DNA of 64,000 bases from Gammaproteobacteria bacterium (GTDB taxonomy: Bacteria; Pseudomonadota; Gammaproteobacteria; Eutrophobiales; Eutrophobiaceae). The DNA is taken from assembly GCA_965221695.1 (NCBI GenBank), contig OZ244905.1:1440001-1504000 (forward strand), given 5' to 3'. The notes beneath the pieces are model-generated. The model did not search any database and was not told where the DNA came from. It worked only from the letters and a program-made list of their open reading frames with translations. Positions 279-58,854 of the stretch are shown in pieces. The first letter of the stretch is position 1; every line of letters starts with the position of its first letter. The translations under genes and the position numbers were made by a program.

Positions 279-770
279 TCATACTCTGATTGCTTTTTCA
301 CCGCGCGCGATACCGGAAACGCCAGTGCGAACAGTTTCCAGTATCAATTCAGGTTTTACGGTTTTCAGGAAGGCATCCAGCTTATCACCGTCGCCGGTGA
401 CTTCTATTGTATAGGAGTTTTCGTTCACATCGACGATGCGTCCCCTGAAAATCTCGCTCAATCGCATCAGCTCTTCCCTGCAGGAATCGTTTGCCCTGAC
501 TTTTACCAGCATCAATTCCCGTTCTATATGTTCGCTCTCGTTCAGATCCACGACTTTTATCACATCCACCAATTTGTTCAGGTGTTTGGTGATCTGTTCA
601 ATGATCGCTTCTGAACCGGATGTCACTATCGTCATGCGGGAGACAGTAGAATCCTCCGTGGGCGCCACGGTAAGTGATTCGATATTGAAGCCGCGCGCAG
701 AAAACAGGCCGGAAATTCTTGACAGCGCCCCGGCCTCATTCTCGACCAGCAGAGACAGAATATGGCGCAT
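279..770 (-). CDS. ilvH: Acetolactate synthase small (regulatory) subunit
   Basis: MRHILSLLVENEAGALSRISGLFSARGFNIESL ACT domain; directly follows ilvI. Confidence 0.97.
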   Translation of the reverse strand: MRHILSLLVENEAGALSRISGLFSARGFNIESLTVAPTEDSTVSRMTIVTSGSEAIIEQITKHLNKLVDVIKVVDLNESEHIERELMLVKVRANDSCREELMRLSEIFRGRIVDVNENSYTIEVTGDGDKLDAFLKTVKPELILETVRTGVSGIARGEKAIRV

Positions 771-2497
771 CAGGCCAATTCCCGCTCTTCGGAGCCGGGC
801 GCCAAGTGCATCTCATGCTGCCCTTTGCCGGCGGCGATCATCGGATATACGTTCTCGGTCTGGTCAGTAATAAAGTCCATCAAAACCAGCTTGTCTTCCA
901 TTGCCAGGGCCTCCTTGAGCGCCGGTTCCACATCGGCGGCCTGCTCGATGCGCATCCCAACGTGGCCAAAGCTCTCAGCCAGCTTGACGAAGTCCGGCAA
1001 GGCATCCATGTAGGAATGGGAATAACGTTTCTCATAAAAGAACTCCTGCCACTGCCTGACCATCCCCATATAGCGGTTATTGAGGTTGATGATCTTTATC
1101 GGAGTCTTGTATTGCAGGCAGGTTGAAAGCTCCTGAATACACATCACCAGGCTGGCCTCACCGGTAATGCAGGCCACCGTTTCGTCCGGATAGGCGATCT
1201 TGGCTCCCATCGCCGCCGGCAAGCCAAAGCCCATCGTGCCGAGACCACCTGAATTCAACCAGCGGCGCGGCTTGTCAAACTTGTAAAACTGCGCCGCCCA
1301 CATCTGGTGCTGGCCTACGTCAGAGGAGATAAAAGCATCGCCACCGGTCAACTCGTACAAGCTCTCAATAACCCGCTGGGGCTTGATCAGGCGCGAGTTT
1401 CTGTCGAAGCGCAAACAGTCCATGTCCTGCCATGCCTTAATCTGCCGCCACCAGCCGTCTATGTCCGGCCGCTCCCGATTCTGTTGCAAACTGGCATTAA
1501 GGTCGCACAGCACATGTTTGACGTCACCGACAATGGGCACATCTACGGGCACGTTCTTGGCAATGGAGGACGGGTCAACATCGATATGGATGATTCTTGC
1601 ATGGGGACAGAACTGTTCCAGGTCGCCCGTCACGCGGTCATCGAAGCGCGCGCCAATAGCGATCAACACATCACATTGGTGCATGGCCATATTGGCCTCA
1701 TAGGTGCCGTGCATTCCAAGCATACCGATAAACTGCTTGTCCGTAGCAGGATATGCGCCCAAACCCATCAGGGTATTGGTGATCGGGAAACCCAGCAACC
1801 GGGTAAATTCGATTAATTCAGCGCTGGCTTCCGAGAGAATAACACCGCCGCCGGTATAGATCATGGGCTTGCGCGCCTGCAACATGAGCTTGACAGCCCG
1901 CCTGATCTGGCCCGGGTGTCCTTTGACAGTAGGCCGGTAAGAGCGCATGTCGACCGTTTCCGGGTATTCATAAGCACAGGAATTTGCGGTAACGTCCTTG
2001 GGAATATCCACCACGACCGGTCCGGGACGGCCGGTACAGGCGACGAAGAACGCTTTTCTGATGACACTGGCCAGGTCTTGCACATCGCTGACCAGGAAAT
2101 TGTGCTTTACACAGGGTCGGGAAATGCCGATTGCATCGACTTCCTGGAACGCGTCGTTGCCGATAACGGATGTGGGGACCTGGCCGCTGAAAACTACCAG
2201 GGGAATGGAATCCATATACGCCGTGGCAATCCCGGTAATCGCGTTGGTGATGCCTGGCCCTGACGTGACCAGCGCCACCCCGGGTCGGCCTGTTGCTCGG
2301 GCATAGCCATCGGCCGCGTGCGCGGCGCCCTGCTCGTGGCGAACGAGGATGTGTTCCACTTCAGTCTGCTTGTACAACTCGTCGTAGATATGTAATACGG
2401 CGCCGCCGGGATAACCAAAAACATGTTTTACCCCTTCATCTTTCAGGGCCCGAACGAAGATTTCGGCCCCGCGCAGTATCGGTTTTGAACTGTTCAC
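770..2497 (-). CDS. ilvI: Acetolactate synthase large subunit
   Basis: FGYPGGAVL, RHEQGA, TSGPG, MLGMHG, SGGLGTMGFGLP motifs. Confidence 0.97.
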   Translation of the reverse strand: MNSSKPILRGAEIFVRALKDEGVKHVFGYPGGAVLHIYDELYKQTEVEHILVRHEQGAAHAADGYARATGRPGVALVTSGPGITNAITGIATAYMDSIPLVVFSGQVPTSVIGNDAFQEVDAIGISRPCVKHNFLVSDVQDLASVIRKAFFVACTGRPGPVVVDIPKDVTANSCAYEYPETVDMRSYRPTVKGHPGQIRRAVKLMLQARKPMIYTGGGVILSEASAELIEFTRLLGFPITNTLMGLGAYPATDKQFIGMLGMHGTYEANMAMHQCDVLIAIGARFDDRVTGDLEQFCPHARIIHIDVDPSSIAKNVPVDVPIVGDVKHVLCDLNASLQQNRERPDIDGWWRQIKAWQDMDCLRFDRNSRLIKPQRVIESLYELTGGDAFISSDVGQHQMWAAQFYKFDKPRRWLNSGGLGTMGFGLPAAMGAKIAYPDETVACITGEASLVMCIQELSTCLQYKTPIKIINLNNRYMGMVRQWQEFFYEKRYSHSYMDALPDFVKLAESFGHVGMRIEQAADVEPALKEALAMEDKLVLMDFITDQTENVYPMIAAGKGQHEMHLAPGSEERELA

Positions 2498-2620
2498 CTG
2501 GAAATTCCACAGTCTGGTAAATTACAGAAGGGGTAACTTACTGATATTCTTTACAAGCGTCAAGTTGAGTTGTGCTTTTCGCACATTCGGCTCAGGGTAA
2601 ACGAGCGCTTTGTATTTTCC

Positions 2621-2728
2621 GTTTCCCCCGGGGGCGCAGGCGTCTCGAGTCCCAATATCACGGTTAATGGCTGGCAGACCCGTTTCCCCTGGGAGCGCGG
2701 GCGTCTCGCCCGCGTGCGCGCCGCCGCC
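2621..2728. repeat. Two degenerate REP-like units (ctgggagcgcgggcgtctcgcccgc type)
   Basis: gtttcccccgggggcgcaggcgtctcg and gtttcccctgggagcgcgggcgtctcgcccgc are repeated in the intergenic region. Confidence 0.55.
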
Positions 2729-2813
2729 AACTTTTTTCACACTTTTGTGAGTTTTCTCACATTTTTGCTGATTTATTTCTTTTCAACTCAGATCAACACT
2801 CTAAAATTTCCTT

Positions 2814-3031
2814 AGCCTCGAAGAAATGAGGCCGCGGCAAGCCTTACTCCAATCGGGCAAGCCGCCAGCACAGGGAAGTCGAGGACTTCACCTGGTCCTC
2901 ACGCTGGAATCCTCCGTGCCTGCAGGCGGCCCGTTTGTTAGCCGCGGGCCAGGGATCAGGGAAACCTGAAGGCGCCAGGGGGCGCGGCAACCGGTAGCGC
3001 GAAACCCGCCGCTCCCCTCTGGCAGGGGGAT
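2814..3031 (+). ncRNA. Candidate structured non-coding RNA, family unassigned
   Basis: GC-rich island between AT-rich flanks with many hairpins (GCCTC/GAGGC, GAGGAC/GTCCTC, GGCCCG/CGGGCC, TCAGG-GAAA-CCTGA, TCCCC/GGGGA); TAAAAT -10-like box at 2802. Confidence 0.5.
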
Positions 3032-3133
3032 CAAGAAGAATTATATCTGGAAAAAAACCCGCATCAGTTATAAAATGGATTCAGATATAAATTACGAACT
3101 GCTTACAGTCATCATAACCATTATTGCCACCCA

Positions 3134-4843
3134 ATGCGGACCACGGAAACTCTACTGGCTACCTTGCGCGAGGCGCCGGCGGATGCCGAGGTTATCAGCC
3201 ACCAGTTGATGCTGCGGGCCGGCCTGGTCAGGCAGACCGCGGCGGGGATTTACAACTGGTTGCCCCTGGGCTTGAAGGTTTTGCGCAAGGTGGAAGCCAT
3301 CGTGCGCGAGGAAATGGACGCATCAGGCGCGCAGGAAGCGCTGCTGGCCGGCGTGCAACCCGCGGAGTTATGGCATGAATCCGGGCGCTGGGAGGAATAT
3401 GGCCCTGAACTGTTGCGTTTCACGGACCGGCATAACCGGGACTTCTGCCTTGGTCCTACCCATGAAGAAATCATCACGGATTTAATCCGGCACGAAATCC
3501 GCAGTTATAAGCAGTTACCAATCAATTTATACCAGGTGCAGACCAAGTTCAGGGACGAGATCCGTCCTCGCTTCGGGATCATGCGGGCGCGCGAATTCAT
3601 CATGAAAGACGCATACTCATTTCATCTCAGCCAGGAGTCCCTGGAACAAACTTACCAGGTTATGTACCAGACCTACTCTCGGATTTTTACCCGGCTTGGG
3701 TTGGAATTTCGTCCCGTTCTCGCCGACAGCGGCAATATCGGCGGCAAGGTATCCCATGAATTTCATGTGCTGGCGACCTCTGGTGAAGACCGTATCGCGT
3801 TTACCCGGGACTCCGAGTTCGCCACCAATGTGGAGCTCATCGCCGCGTCCGCGCCGGCGCAACCAAGACCGGCGCCGGACCAACCCATGGAGAAGGTGGC
3901 AACGCCGGATCAGCATACCATAGACGATCTCAGTCGTTTTCTTGGCATCAGCCCGGCGCGCTGTCTGAAGACATTGATCGTCAAAGGTAGCGACTCCGGA
4001 CTGGTCGCGCTGGCGTTGCGTGGGGACCACGAATTGAATCGTCTGAAAGCGGAAAAACTGCCGGAAACAGCAACGCCGCTCAGCTTCGCATCCCCGGAGG
4101 AGATCAGCAAAGAGTTGGGCTGCGATATCGGTTCACTGGGCCCGGTAGGATTGAATATCCCGGTTATCGCCGACAACGCTGCTCTGGCTCTGGCAGATTT
4201 TGCCTGCGGCGCCAACGAGAACGGCTATCACCTTACGGGAGTAAACTGGCAAAGAGACCTGGAAGAGCCCGCGCCCGCAGACCTGCGCAATGTCGTCGAA
4301 GGCGATCCTGCGCCCGATAACTCGGGACCATTGCAGATAGCTCGCGGTATCGAAGTAGGACATATCTTCCAACTGGGCACAAAATACAGCGACGCGATGA
4401 AGACCACCTGCCTTGATGAAACCGGCGCGGCAGTCACTCTGTTCATGGGCTGTTACGGCATCGGCGTCTCACGCATTGTCGCCGCCGCCATCGAACAAAA
4501 CCACGACACGCGCGGCATCATCTGGCCGGCCGCAATGGCTCCATACCAACTGGCCCTGATACCCATCCATGCGCACAAGTCCCAACGCCTGCGGGCAGCC
4601 GTTGAGGAGCTGTATCAACAACTGCTGGACAACGGTATCGAAGTATTACTGGACGACAGGAAGGAGCGGCCGGGAGTCATGTTTGCCGATGTGGAACTGA
4701 TCGGGATACCACATCGCTTCGTATTCAGCGAACGCGGGCTGGACAACGGCGCCCTGGAGTACAAAGGCAGGCGCGATGAACAAAGCACGGACATCCCGCT
4801 GGCGCGCGCGGTCGAGTATATCAAGGACAAACTGGAATACTGA
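3134..4843 (+). CDS. proS: Prolyl-tRNA synthetase with editing insertion domain
   Basis: [43 protein letters not shown]. Confidence 0.98.
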
Positions 4844-4906: not shown

Positions 4907-5254
4907 ATGACCGTAACAATCTACCATAACCCCAGGTGCAGCAAATCCAGGCAGACCCTGGAATTATTGCGCGGTAGAGGGCTGGAACCGAAAATCATCG
5001 AGTACCTGAAAAATCCGCCGGATAAAAGCGAAATGTCTACGATACTGGCGCTGTTGGGAATGGCGCCCCGAGAGCTGATGCGGAAAAAAGAAACGGAGTA
5101 CAAGGCCAACGGCCTGGACGCTCAGAGCCTGTCCGACAAACAGTTGCTTGACGCGCTGGTTGCGCATCCTGTGTTGATTGAACGTCCCATTGTGCTCGCC
5201 AACGGCAAAGCCGTCATAGGGCGGCCGCCGGAAAACGCGCTGAAAATAGTCTAA
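4907..5254 (+). CDS. arsC: Arsenate reductase (glutaredoxin-type ArsC family)
   Basis: IYHNPRCSKSR ... LIERPIV ... IGRPPE. Confidence 0.9.
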   Translation: MTVTIYHNPRCSKSRQTLELLRGRGLEPKIIEYLKNPPDKSEMSTILALLGMAPRELMRKKETEYKANGLDAQSLSDKQLLDALVAHPVLIERPIVLANGKAVIGRPPENALKIV

Positions 5255-6856
<1,602 letters not shown>

Positions 6857-6951
6857 AGCTTCGCTGTTGCGCGGCTGAAATTTATGTTCCTGGTCGAACA
6901 CCAGGGAACCTTGGCTCTTGTGCGTTGATTTTGTCATACCGGCGTTCGCAG

Positions 6952-8016
6952 TCATGGGTTCAGGAGGTAATAGTGGCCGTGAGAGCTTTCAACCGGTTCC
7001 AGGGTCCTTCCCAGGTTAATAGTCCGAAGCACAGCTTGCTCCCCGCCATACGCTACCAACGCCAGGATGACTTCTCCTACACGAGCCTCTTTCACATGGA
7101 CACGGATGATTGAACTCAGTGATTCCAGGTAGTTGAGCAAACGCGCATAACCCTCAACCGTATTCACGGCGCCTACCGTGATCTCGATATCCAGCGCCAT
7201 AGCGTAACTGTCGCTGCGGACGAATTCGTATGCCAGGTCGTCGACAAGATCCTCGATTCCCTCTTCCAACGCGAGCTCCAACAGGTCTGTCTCAGTTCTC
7301 CATGCGCGCTTGAGGCCGTCGCTCCCGTAACTTTTCCACCTGCCTTCCCAGATTCCCGAGGCGGGGGAACTCATGCTTGCCGTCAAGATAATGTCGGCCT
7401 GGTACCTGGCAGAAGCCGCCATAATCTGTTCTTCGAACCCAAACCATACATCGCCGGGACGAATCCGCATTTGATCATCTAAGTCGTGTAGGGGAAACAA
7501 GATGGCGACACCGCGCCGTTGCGCTACCTGCCGCACAATCGTCAACAATGCCGAGGCGTTTCCGGGTTCGGCAAATAGTCTGCGGTTTGACCGTTCCAGC
7601 GCCAACCACACCAGGATCGACGGACGTTCCTCGTCCCAGACCGGTATCTGCAAGGCCCGCAGGGAGTTATTCAGGTTCTCCCGGTCAAATTTAACCAGCA
7701 GACGCCATTGCCGCGCGGGAACCGGATCGGTCGGGAGGAGTATTTCCGGCTCAAGCTCCCGGTATCGGTATTGTTGCACAAACTTTTCCGCCTGTTCCAG
7801 GATCGTCGCTAACGCATTATCCTCTGACGCATTTCGAACGCCGGTCAGCTTCACCAACGTCCTGCCCAAGCAGTCCCGGATTGCTGCCAACCTGTCCTCG
7901 CTTGATTGGCTGCTTACGATTGTCTCGGCCTCATACAGACCCGGCACCTTGATGGCATGAACGAACAACGGGGCTGAACAAAACAGACAACAGGCTATCC
8001 AAACTATTTTTTTCAT
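6952..8016 (-). CDS. DUF2066-like exported protein
   Basis: Signal peptide, LYEAE...LVKLTG, W..ERPSILVWL; located between purM and hda as is usual. Confidence 0.8.
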   Translation of the reverse strand: MKKIVWIACCLFCSAPLFVHAIKVPGLYEAETIVSSQSSEDRLAAIRDCLGRTLVKLTGVRNASEDNALATILEQAEKFVQQYRYRELEPEILLPTDPVPARQWRLLVKFDRENLNNSLRALQIPVWDEERPSILVWLALERSNRRLFAEPGNASALLTIVRQVAQRRGVAILFPLHDLDDQMRIRPGDVWFGFEEQIMAASARYQADIILTASMSSPASGIWEGRWKSYGSDGLKRAWRTETDLLELALEEGIEDLVDDLAYEFVRSDSYAMALDIEITVGAVNTVEGYARLLNYLESLSSIIRVHVKEARVGEVILALVAYGGEQAVLRTINLGRTLEPVESSHGHYYLLNP

Positions 8017-58761: not shown

Positions 58762-58854
58762 GGAGGTGAAAGAAGTCTGGTGACTTCCCTGGTCTTCAAA
58801 ACCAGTGACTTGCCCAACGCGAGTGGTGGGTTCGATTCCCATCCACCTCCGCCA
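58762..58854 (+). tRNA. selC: tRNA-Sec (UCA)
   Basis: 6-bp D stem, CTGGT-CTTCAAA-ACCAG anticodon arm, long variable arm, GTTCGATTC, G73-CCA. Confidence 0.95.

What the first reader, a model, noticed from the sequence alone, without database searches (positions are those of the whole stretch)
2814..3031. Unassigned ~220-nt structured RNA candidate between ilvI and proS
Seen: a sharply GC-rich block inside AT-rich flanks, starting just after a TAAAAT box. It has at least five stems, a GAAA tetraloop that fixes the + strand, GGCAAGCC twice, and competing pairings (GCCGCC 2861 with GGCGGC 2925 versus GGCCCG/CGGGCC; CCAGC/GCTGG). It does not match 6S, tmRNA, RNase P or SRP signatures as I know them. 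Inference: the run GTTAGCC...AGGG...GNRA hairpin...GAAGG...GGCAA recalls group IIC intron domain I from memory, but no domain V or reverse transcriptase is present. It may be a domesticated intron-like RNA or a novel proS leader.
Basis: partly seen in the sequence, partly recalled or inferred. Interest (0 to 1): 0.7.

Follow-up and report, generated by a model that had tools for sequence, protein, structure and literature searches.

The report
Genus-specific structured small RNA family
The GC-rich block upstream of proS is one copy of an undescribed folded small RNA gene with its own regulated promoter, present in one to nine copies per genome in a single genus of uncultured Gammaproteobacteria; its function is still unknown.

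Summary
The block at 2814-3031 is real and is non-coding RNA, but it is neither a group II intron piece nor, most likely, a proS leader. It does not fold better than shuffled sequence on its own (z -1.8). The evidence is comparative. A 127-nt core (2906-3032) recurs in 20 of 23 genomes of the genus and in none of 103 genomes from 33 sister genera. On 54 distinct copies, 92% of the cells in four helices (P1-P4) are paired, against 42-59% for slid controls, and 21 of 36 pairs show changes on both sides. An invariant purine-rich strand (GGAUCA.GGACAG) stays unpaired. Each copy has a promoter: a TGTGA-N6-TCACA palindrome lies exactly 40 nt before a TAnAAT box in 49 of 53 copies, which puts its centre near -61. 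One "anchor" copy sits upstream of proS across the genus. Up to eight further copies lie in variable polysaccharide and nuclease islands. Their downstream genes are co-oriented in 20 cases and convergent in 17, some ending 21-24 nt away. proS has its own promoter-like site (3048-3076). Rfam 15 has no match. My best reading is a stand-alone, activator-controlled family of sibling sRNAs, probably protein-binding. Its expression and its partner were not tested.

The parts
2746..2761 (.). Perfect 16-bp palindrome of the TGTGA-N6-TCACA type. Presumed activator site centred about 61 nt upstream of the predicted start.
   Evidence: Exact 16-mer found 6 times in the 3.5-Mb genome. A TGTG-N8-CACA palindrome is present in 49 of 53 RNA copies, always 40 nt before the -10 box. 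Its distance to the divergent ilvIH promoter varies from 80 to 783 nt in the 12 of 17 loci where both were found.
2780..2807 (+). Sigma-70-like promoter: weak -35 TTTTCA, 16-nt spacer, -10 TAAAAT (2802-2807). Predicted start about 2814.
   Evidence: The -10 box is TAAAAT, TAGAAT, TACAAT, TAAGAT or TAATAT in 49 of 53 copies. Transcription was not tested.
2814..2905 (+). Optional 5' domain of three hairpins: A 2815-2832, B 2834-2865 (the two GGCAAGCC strands), C 2871-2894.
   Evidence: Homologous across anchor and island copies (42 distinct sequences aligned). Absent in 4 species where the -10 box abuts the core (L010, L012, L013, L015). Loops A and C mostly carry A-N-GGA in relatives. Helices are from MFE and alignment reading only; no formal pair count was made.
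2906..3032 (+). Conserved core, a three-way junction. P1 2909-2915 with 3024-3030. P2 2918-2921/2924-2927 with 2964-2967/2970-2973, with a 2x2 internal loop. P3 2928-2932 with 2946-2950. P4 2974-2987 with 3009-3023, with a loop of variable length.
   Evidence: CM R1 hit of 94.2 bits, E 1e-18. Pair counts. In the window itself 2909/3030, 2915/3024 and 2927/2964 are mismatches.
2951..2963 (+). Nearly invariant unpaired purine-rich strand between P3 and P2 (GGAUCA.GGA...), holding two A-N-GGA motifs.
   Evidence: At least 98% identical columns across 53 type-1 copies. Invariant columns.
3048..3076 (+). Second promoter-like site (TGGAAA-17-TAAAAT) between the RNA and proS.
   Evidence: A TATAAAAT or TGATATAAT box stands at the same relative place in most of the 8 relatives shown (weaker in L011 and L016).
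3086..3133 (+). Remnant of a 53-codon small ORF that is intact in 6 relatives. Here its start codon reads ATA, and a deletion joins it to the proS ATG.
3134..4843 (+). proS (proline--tRNA ligase), the downstream neighbour.
   Evidence: NCBIfam NF006625, 823 bits against a cut-off of 558.
770..2497 (-). ilvI (acetolactate synthase large subunit), the divergent upstream neighbour. ilvH is at 279-770.
   Evidence: TIGR00118, 882 bits against 538; NF008864, 237 bits against 119.

Best explanation
The block is a gene for a stand-alone, structured small RNA of about 220 nt on the + strand (about 2814 to 3030). It belongs to a previously undescribed family of sibling sRNAs confined to one genus of uncultured Gammaproteobacteria.

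Shown: the core is a conserved three-way junction with covarying helices and an invariant unpaired purine-rich strand. Every copy carries the same promoter module, a CRP-consensus-like palindrome at a fixed distance from a -10 box. One copy is anchored next to proS, and further copies sit in variable islands.

Inferred: a CRP-family dimer bound near -61 activates transcription, in the manner of a class I promoter. This would co-regulate the RNAs with a ComEA-like DNA-uptake gene. The folded core would act in trans by binding a protein or another macromolecule through its invariant loop and its A-N-GGA hairpin loops, rather than by controlling proS in cis. I put about 0.7 on 'independent promoter-equipped sRNA gene family'. 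Within that, about 0.35 goes to protein binding or titration (CsrA being the one concrete candidate), about 0.15 to base-pairing, and the rest to unknown modes.
For: Homology and structure. The core is found in 20 of 23 genus genomes, 57 matches. It is found in none of 103 genomes of 33 other genera of the family, which is also the order here. On 33 hand-aligned distinct cores, 88.4% of cells are paired against 40-58% when slid, and the covariation score is 0.192 against 0.133 in shuffles (0 of 500 reach it). On 54 distinct model-aligned copies the figures are 92.0% paired, 21 of 36 pairs changed on both sides, and 0.283 against 0.141. Rows where the two self-complementary P2 elements differ (for example L036, L024, L022) pair between elements, not within them.

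Promoter. The palindrome-to--10 spacing is 40 nt in 49 of 53 copies, while the distance to the ilvIH promoter varies from 80 to 783 nt. The same module precedes a ComEA-like gene in this genome and in RNA-less G017. A CRP-family protein with an R-E-x-x-x-R recognition helix is encoded at G000:945684-946421 and in 22 of 23 genus genomes.

Not a leader. There is a separate promoter-like site before proS. Of 37 non-anchor copies, 20 are followed by a co-oriented ORF and 17 by a convergent ORF, and 5 convergent genes end 21-24 nt from the RNA. Similarity among 7 paralogues in G018 stops within about 10 nt of the 3' strand of P1.

Not coding. Core length ranges from 118 to 140 nt with all three residues modulo 3 (23, 15, 15).
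Against: Transcription was never observed. There is no intrinsic terminator after the RNA, although the genus uses canonical ones elsewhere. The 3' end is therefore undefined, and read-through into proS or into convergent genes is possible.

The window sequence alone is not more stable than shuffles. The A5 alignment is fitted to the model, which inflates pair counts. The sequences are close kin, so the shuffle control overstates significance.

No equivalog of E. coli-type CRP was found: 56.5 bits against a cut-off of 266. The activator is therefore a guess. ORF calls for context were crude, taking the greedy longest ORFs of at least 90 aa. Overall GGA content is barely above expectation, 6.0 against 4.9.
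Confidence: 0.7

Rival explanations
1. Cis-acting 5' leader or riboswitch of proS (or of the small ORF plus proS). The folded core would sense a ligand or a tRNA and control downstream expression by read-through.
For: The RNA is co-oriented with and upstream of proS in the window and in 13 of 16 relatives' loci. No terminator separates them. A closed junction with invariant unpaired bases looks like an aptamer.
Against: The RNA-to-proS spacer varies from about 90 to 370 nt, and in 6 species it holds an unrelated 53-codon ORF. A promoter-like box lies between the RNA and proS. In 2 relatives (L015, L027) the anchor copy is not followed by proS. The 37 paralogues precede unrelated genes or face convergent ones. 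No alternative-pairing expression platform was found.
Confidence: 0.1
2. A CsrA/RsmA-titrating sponge RNA of a new sequence class. It would work like RsmX/Y/Z but be driven by a different regulator.
For: A csrA equivalog is present: 113.7 bits against a cut-off of 73. There is no FliW. No CsrB, RsmY or RsmZ reaches its Rfam cut-off in the genome. A-N-GGA motifs number 3.7 per RNA against 1.0 expected (n=49). They sit in hairpin loops A and C and twice in the invariant strand. The RNAs are multi-copy siblings behind a palindromic upstream site whose targets in this genome are mostly RNA genes.
Against: GGA density is about 1 per 36 nt, 6.0 observed against 4.9 expected. This is far below CsrB or RsmZ as I recall them. 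The short forms keep only 2 A-N-GGA. Conservation extends well beyond the GGA motifs. There is no terminator. There is no GacA or BarA equivalog: 176 bits against 280 for a regulator paired with a UhpB-like kinase, and 78 against 890. CsrA is present in 22 of 23 genomes, including the three without the RNA.
Confidence: 0.12
3. RNA partner (regulator, antitoxin or cofactor) of small PD-(D/E)XK nuclease-type genes in a proliferating selfish or defence cassette. The proS-linked copy would be a domesticated or orphan copy.
For: 11 of 37 non-anchor copies adjoin a 272-aa Uma2-like gene. This includes tandem gene-plus-RNA arrays in G005 (spacing 1385 bp), G010 and G018. Four copies precede a DUF3782/Hjc-like nuclease gene, and 2-3 adjoin PIN genes. 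The Uma2-like protein hits the PADLOC defence candidate PDC-S17 at 3.5e-9. Remnants of the nuclease gene flank further copies.
Against: This genome has the RNA but no homologue of the Uma2-like protein (tblastn at E<=1e-3). G020 and G014 have 3 and 2 extra copies and no such gene. Several close Uma2-like genes have no RNA nearby, for example G005:3393508, G005:3458127 and G004:573774. The arrays in three genomes may be one inherited tandem duplication.
Confidence: 0.1
4. Decayed group II (IIC) intron domain I.
For: Only a remembered resemblance of short sequence runs. One island copy gave a sub-threshold hit to the reverse-transcriptase-associated RT-19 motif: 17.8 bits against a gathering score of 78.3, E 0.39.
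Against: No group II model scored at E<=10. There is no RT ORF. The unit is about 220 nt, has its own promoter, and is under purifying selection in 20 species.
Confidence: 0.01
5. A small protein gene or a decayed coding sequence.
For: A 47-codon ORF at 2826-2969 (+) and two 48-codon ORFs on the - strand overlap the block. Stop-free frames are common in this GC-rich sequence; one frame is open in 43 of 53 cores.
Against: Length variation is not in threes. The ATG of the 47-codon ORF lies in loop A, where most relatives read ACG. Paired columns change on both sides. The invariant strand shows no three-base periodicity.
Confidence: 0.02

Closest known systems
RsmX/RsmY/RsmZ and CsrB/CsrC (CsrA-sequestering sibling sRNAs of Gammaproteobacteria). 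Properties recalled, not from a call.
   Same: Multi-copy sibling sRNA genes. A palindromic upstream activating site whose direct targets are mainly the sRNA genes. A-N-GGA motifs in hairpin loops. A gamma-type csrA is present in the genome.
   Different: No Rfam match. The palindrome has CRP spacing (TGTGAG-N4-CTCACA, 16 bp), not the 18-bp GacA box as recalled. No GacS/GacA. No terminator. Low GGA density. A large invariant three-way-junction core that sponges do not need.
CRP-controlled sRNAs of enterobacteria such as CyaR and Spot 42 (recalled).
   Same: An sRNA gene behind a consensus-like TGTGA-N6-TCACA site. The position near -61 matches class I activation as described for lac (recalled).
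   Different: Those are short, Hfq-dependent base-pairing RNAs with U-rich terminators and a single copy each. Here there is no terminator, the fold is closed and GC-rich, there are up to 9 copies, and no CRP equivalog was found.
Riboswitch-type three-way-junction aptamers.
   Same: Covarying helices enclose invariant unpaired nucleotides. One helix has a terminal loop of variable length. The anchor copy lies upstream of a co-oriented gene.
   Different: There is no expression platform, and the RNA has its own dedicated regulated promoter. About half of the island copies face convergent genes. No common downstream gene class was seen.
Group II intron domain I
   Same: GC-rich and multi-helix.
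   Different: No model match, no domains V/VI, no intron-encoded protein, and the unit has a promoter.

Membership tests
Group II intron (IIC) | Catalytic domain V/VI and D1-D4 architecture recognisable by the Rfam group II models | tested here: not met
   Permissive cmscan of 2450-3200 and of an island copy listed no group II family at E<=10.
Group II intron (IIC) | Intron-encoded reverse transcriptase, or insertion after a terminator hairpin | tested here: not met
   No ORF longer than 81 aa lies wholly between ilvI and proS. Copies carry a promoter instead.
CsrB/Rsm sponge sRNAs | Match to the Rfam CsrB, RsmY or PrrB_RsmZ models | tested here: not met
   Whole genome: CsrB none at E<=1; RsmY best 20 bits (a cspA-like gene); RsmZ best 14.3 bits.
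CsrB/Rsm sponge sRNAs | High density of GGA motifs exposed in loops | tested here: inconclusive
   GGA 6.0 against 4.9 expected; A-N-GGA 3.7 against 1.0 expected, over 49 RNAs. Four conserved A-N-GGA sites in loops or the unpaired strand.
CsrB/Rsm sponge sRNAs | GacS/GacA (BarA/UvrY) control through an 18-bp TGTAAG-N6-CTTACA box (recalled) | tested here: not met
   The palindrome is 16 bp. The best UvrY-model hit is 176 bits against a cut-off of 280 and sits in an operon with a UhpB-like kinase. The best BarA hit is 78 bits against 890.
CsrB/Rsm sponge sRNAs | Binding of CsrA | not testable with these tools
   No RNA-protein predictor or assay was available. csrA is present.
Class I CRP-dependent promoter | TGTGA-N6-TCACA site on the correct helical face near -61.5 (recalled definition) | tested here: met
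   Perfect palindrome at 2746-2761. The centre is 60.5-61.5 nt from a start assumed to lie 7-8 nt after the -10 box. The spacing is fixed in 49 of 53 copies. The start site itself is inferred.
Class I CRP-dependent promoter | A CRP orthologue in the genome | tested here: inconclusive
   No equivalog: 56.5 bits against 266. A 246-283-aa cNMP-binding family member with an R-E-x-x-x-R helix is present and is conserved in 22 of 23 genus genomes.
Riboswitch or T-box leader of proS | Lies in the 5' UTR of the regulated gene, with a terminator/antiterminator or SD-sequestering platform | tested here: not met
   No terminator-like site follows the core. A promoter-like site lies between the RNA and proS. 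Paralogues occur in unrelated contexts.
Any curated Rfam 15 family | Score at or above the family gathering threshold | tested here: not met
   The only hits are tRNA-Sec and tRNA elsewhere.

The most novel reading that the evidence does not exclude
The family is a lineage-specific RNA arm of a cyclic-nucleotide/CRP-like regulon, and its folded core is a dedicated protein partner. Either it is a new class of CsrA antagonist that replaces the missing Gac-Rsm circuit, or it is the RNA component (antidote or cofactor) of proliferating PD-(D/E)XK nuclease cassettes that resemble candidate phage-defence genes. In the second case the proS-linked copy would be kept genus-wide as a chromosomal 'immunity' copy.
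Probability: 0.15. Interest if true: 0.75.

Novelty: new member of a known kind. Interest (0 to 1): 0.5.

Why it matters
This adds a well-supported, previously uncatalogued structured RNA family. It has a closed three-way junction, an invariant loop, a dedicated promoter and one to nine copies per genome. The organisms are known only from metagenome-assembled genomes, for which no RNA biology exists.

The family also shows a compact regulon in which one palindromic site mostly drives RNA genes: this family, a second sRNA-like gene and unusual tRNA-like genes, plus a DNA-uptake gene. That gives a concrete handle on regulation in an uncultured lineage. It also offers candidates for the missing CsrA antagonist, or for an RNA-nuclease partnership. 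The scope is narrow (one genus) and the function is unknown, so the value is as a lead rather than a result.

Tried and rejected
Single-sequence folding was uninformative on both strands.

Rfam gave no real match in four scans: the whole window at gathering thresholds, the region at E<=10, an island copy at E<=10, and other loci of the regulon.

Expression could not be tested. The look-up of sequencing runs listed no RNA holder (4 runs, none on record as RNA).

The viral contigs pattern scan gave 11 hits. All were one unrelated phage coding sequence, and none matched the CM. In the metagenome-contig scan, 4 of 31 hits were true copies and the rest chance. These added no new lineage, and I did not examine their contexts.

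The genome-contig scan gave 18 loci, all titled only 'MAG: Gammaproteobacteria bacterium'.

A target search for the complement of the invariant strand found 1 exact hit in the own genome (the RNA itself) and 22 hits with one mismatch, with no pattern near start codons. Base-pairing was therefore neither supported nor excluded.

The 53-aa small ORF is not similar to any flanking protein and has no PADLOC hit.

Literature: two full-text searches, one with general terms and one with three literal motif strings, returned nothing relevant. I saw listings and abstracts only. 'Not in print' therefore rests on these two searches and on Rfam. Supplements were not consulted.

I rejected a shared palindrome for ilvIH because its distance to that promoter varies. 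I rejected Fis, LacI-type, sigma-54 and P2 Ogr-type readings of the palindrome by eye against recalled consensus sequences, without any computation.

Full report
**What is at the coordinates.** The 636-nt spacer 2498-3133 lies between ilvI (770-2497, minus strand; ilvH at 279-770) and proS (3134-4843, plus strand). Within it, 2800-2999 is GC-rich (0.55-0.70) and is flanked by AT-rich DNA (0.38-0.47). TAAAAT stands at 2802-2807, and a simple scan reports it as part of a promoter-like site, TTTTCA-16-TAAAAT. The duplicated GGCAAGCC is present. Rfam 15 finds nothing here, either at gathering thresholds or at E<=10. Taken alone, the sequence folds no better than dinucleotide shuffles on either strand (z -1.78 and -1.63).

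**Comparative evidence.**
- The candidate is single-copy at the BLAST level in its own 3.54-Mb genome.
- The spacer finds partial matches in 21 of 22 other genomes of the genus and in none of 18 genomes from other genera sampled in that call.
- In 16 relatives' loci the RNA-like part is conserved at 70-83% identity. The flanking ilvI and proS 5' ends are 78-88% identical.
- proS follows the RNA in 13 of those loci and ilvI precedes it in 12. Two loci (L015, L027) have ilvI but no proS downstream.
- The alignment shows a nearly invariant 3' core (2906-3031), a more variable 5' domain (2814-2905), and a conserved promoter region.
- In four species (L010, L012, L013, L015) the 5' domain is missing altogether and the -10 box abuts the core. 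The core is therefore the essential unit.

**Structure.** RNAalifold on 17 cores, and then on 33 distinct cores, gave a closed junction. I refined it by hand into four helices:
- P1 closes the domain.
- P2 is formed by two copies of a self-complementary 10-mer pairing with each other across a 2x2 internal loop.
- P3 stacks on P2.
- P4 is a long GC hairpin with a loop of variable length.

On the MAFFT alignment of 33 distinct cores:
- 88.4% of 1160 cells are standard pairs, against 40-58% when partners are slid by 1-3 columns.
- 11 of 36 pairs change on both sides.
- The covariation score is 0.192, against 0.133 in shuffles (0 of 500 reach it).
- Examples are pair 5:146 (GC 15, UG 14, UA 2), 16:73 (CG 17, UA 14), 19:70 (AU 12, GU 11, GC 9) and 92:127 (CG 15, UA 10).

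Rows in which the two P2 elements differ pair across elements rather than within them.

With 58 model-aligned copies (54 distinct):
- 92.0% of cells are paired, and 21 of 36 pairs change on both sides.
- The score is 0.283 against 0.141 (0 of 500), and slid controls give 42-59%.

Two caveats apply. That alignment is fitted to the model, and the sequences are kin, so the shuffle control is generous.

The strand between P3 and P2 (2951-2963 here) is at least 98% invariant across 53 copies. The + strand is supported by many U-G pairs and by reverse-strand model scores of 24-27 bits against 121-131. The model was, however, built on the + strand.

**Distribution.**
- Covariance model R1 finds 57 matches in 20 of 23 genomes of the genus. 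Counts are 1 to 9 per genome: G007 has 9 and G018 has 8. G009, G012 and G017 have none.
- In the family, which is also the whole order here, 126 genomes from 34 genera give matches only in this genus.
- A broader model, R2, adds only two hits of about 27 bits at E 0.013, which I treat as noise.
- A diverged 'type 2' variant has the same promoter, P1, P3 and P4, but a shorter unpaired strand and a different 5' domain. It occurs three times in the window's genome (G000:424997, 427835, 829011) and twice in G008.
- Pattern scans of viral and metagenome collections added nothing beyond four further copies.
- The record titles name only 'Gammaproteobacteria bacterium' MAGs.

**Promoter.**
- Upstream of 49 of 53 strong copies there is a TGTG-N8-CACA palindrome. 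In the window it is the perfect 16-mer at 2746-2761.
- In all 49 the best TAnAAT-like hexamer begins exactly 40 nt after the palindrome. My script looked only in a 36-52-nt zone, so this is the best-scoring position rather than a free measurement.
- With a start 7-8 nt after the -10 box, the palindrome centre lies at about -61.
- As a control, the distance from the palindrome to the conserved divergent ilvIH promoter (TTGACG-17-TAAGTT, within 2532-2567) varies from 80 to 783 nt in the 12 of 17 loci where both could be located. The site therefore belongs to the RNA.
- The exact 16-mer occurs six times in the genome: at the four RNAs, at a ComEA-like gene followed by leuS, and at another sRNA-like unit that has a canonical terminator.
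- Near-exact copies precede odd tRNA-like genes.
- G009 and G012 lack the motif. G017 has one copy, before its ComEA-like gene.
- The site and its flanks match the E. coli CRP consensus as I recall it, and -61.5 is the classical class I position (recalled).
- The genome has no CRP equivalog (56.5 bits against 266). It does encode a cNMP-binding family member whose recognition helix has the R-E-x-x-x-R pattern that I recall as reading TGTGA. That gene sits next to a cyclase-like gene and is conserved in 22 of 23 genus genomes.
- That this protein activates the promoter is inference.

**Leader or independent gene.**
- No terminator-like site follows the core.
- A second promoter-like site (3048-3076) precedes proS, and a comparable -10 box is seen in most of the 8 relatives displayed.
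- Six relatives have a 53-codon ORF between the RNA and proS.
- For the 37 strong copies that are not proS-linked, a crude ORF call puts a co-oriented ORF downstream in 20 cases and a convergent one in 17. Five convergent genes stop 21-24 nt from the RNA.
- Among 7 paralogues in G018, similarity ends within about 10 nt of the 3' strand of P1.
- The type 2 copies in this genome are also followed by convergent genes.

Together these favour a self-contained RNA gene. The missing terminator leaves read-through open.

**Neighbours of the island copies.** They lie among glycosyltransferase and DegT-type aminotransferase genes and beside small genes of nuclease or toxin type:
- A 272-aa Uma2-like protein adjoins 11 of 37 copies. 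It forms tandem gene-plus-RNA arrays in G005, G010 and G018. It scores below the Pfam cut-off (23-25 bits against 27) and hits PADLOC PDC-S17 at 3.5e-9.
- A DUF3782/Hjc-like protein adjoins 4 copies.
- PIN genes adjoin 2-3 copies.
- An HTH protein also recurs.

The link is not obligate. This genome has no Uma2-like homologue. G020 and G014 have extra RNA copies without one. Several Uma2-like genes have no RNA nearby.

**CsrA idea.**
- csrA is present downstream of aspartate kinase.
- FliW, GacA and BarA equivalogs were not found.
- No Rfam CsrB, RsmY or RsmZ was found.
- A-N-GGA motifs are enriched (3.7 against 1.0 expected) and conserved in loops. Total GGA is not enriched (6.0 against 4.9).
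- CsrA is also present in the three genomes that lack the RNA.

I keep this as a minority mechanism.

**Verdict.** The element is a new, genus-restricted family of structured sRNAs with a dedicated promoter that looks activator-dependent. It is not intron-derived, and it is probably not a proS leader. Its molecular partner, its ends and its expression remain untested.

Noticed in passing
window 58762-58850 (+): tRNA-Sec gene (Rfam RF01852, 77.4 bits). It is the only Rfam match at gathering threshold in the 64-kb window.
   Followed up: no
window 2610-2725: Two copies of a REP-like GC-rich repeat (about 2619-2647 and 2680-2708, 90% alike). It recurs at many sites in this genome and in relatives. 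Here it is inserted between the ilvIH promoter and the RNA promoter.
   Followed up: partly
window 2532-2567 (- strand): A 36-nt block that is 91-97% conserved in most relatives' loci. It contains TTGACG-17-TAAGTT on the minus strand and is probably the ilvIH promoter. It was found by regex in 12 of 17 loci.
   Followed up: partly
window 3086-3133; intact form at L010:1386-1547 (-): A 53-codon ORF with a hydrophobic N-terminus lies between the RNA and proS in 6 relatives. In this genome its ATG reads ATA, and a deletion at an ATGCG microhomology joins the remnant directly to the proS start codon. This removes the GGAGGA box that precedes proS in relatives such as L010.
   Followed up: partly
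outside the window: L070 1234-1331 and 1424-1521 (+); L069 3571-3668 (-) (G000 about 2.201 Mb and 0.286 Mb): 98-nt tRNA-like genes in tandem behind the same palindrome-type promoter. Rfam tRNA scores 52-53 bits, but ARAGORN does not call them. The fold shows an 8-bp acceptor stem, a long variable arm, a 5-bp T stem and an anticodon loop reading GCC. Each is preceded by a terminator-like hairpin. The shape recalls tRNA-Sec-like or 'allo'-tRNAs (recalled).
   Followed up: partly
outside the window: L068, minus strand from about 3766 down to about 3520 (G000 about 925.0-925.3 kb): Another exact copy of the 16-bp palindrome is followed by an unrelated stretch of about 200 nt that ends in a canonical hairpin-plus-T-run terminator. 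It is a candidate second sRNA, upstream of a further gene that I did not identify.
   Followed up: no
outside the window: L057 4574-4858 (+), then 4964-7591 (+): The palindrome-type promoter at G000:2174469 precedes a 94-aa ComEA-like helix-hairpin-helix protein followed by leuS. The motif-ComEA link is also seen in G017 (L130), which has no RNA copy. I assigned both gene names by reading the translations, not from a family search.
   Followed up: partly
L047 13118-16706 (G005): Three tandem 272-aa Uma2-like genes with starts 1385 bp apart. Each is separated from the next by one copy of the RNA on the opposite strand. Similar arrays occur in G010 and G018.
   Followed up: partly
L049 12646 (G018): One island copy keeps the -10 box and the RNA but has lost the palindrome. 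Homology to its paralogues begins just upstream of the -10 box.
   Followed up: no
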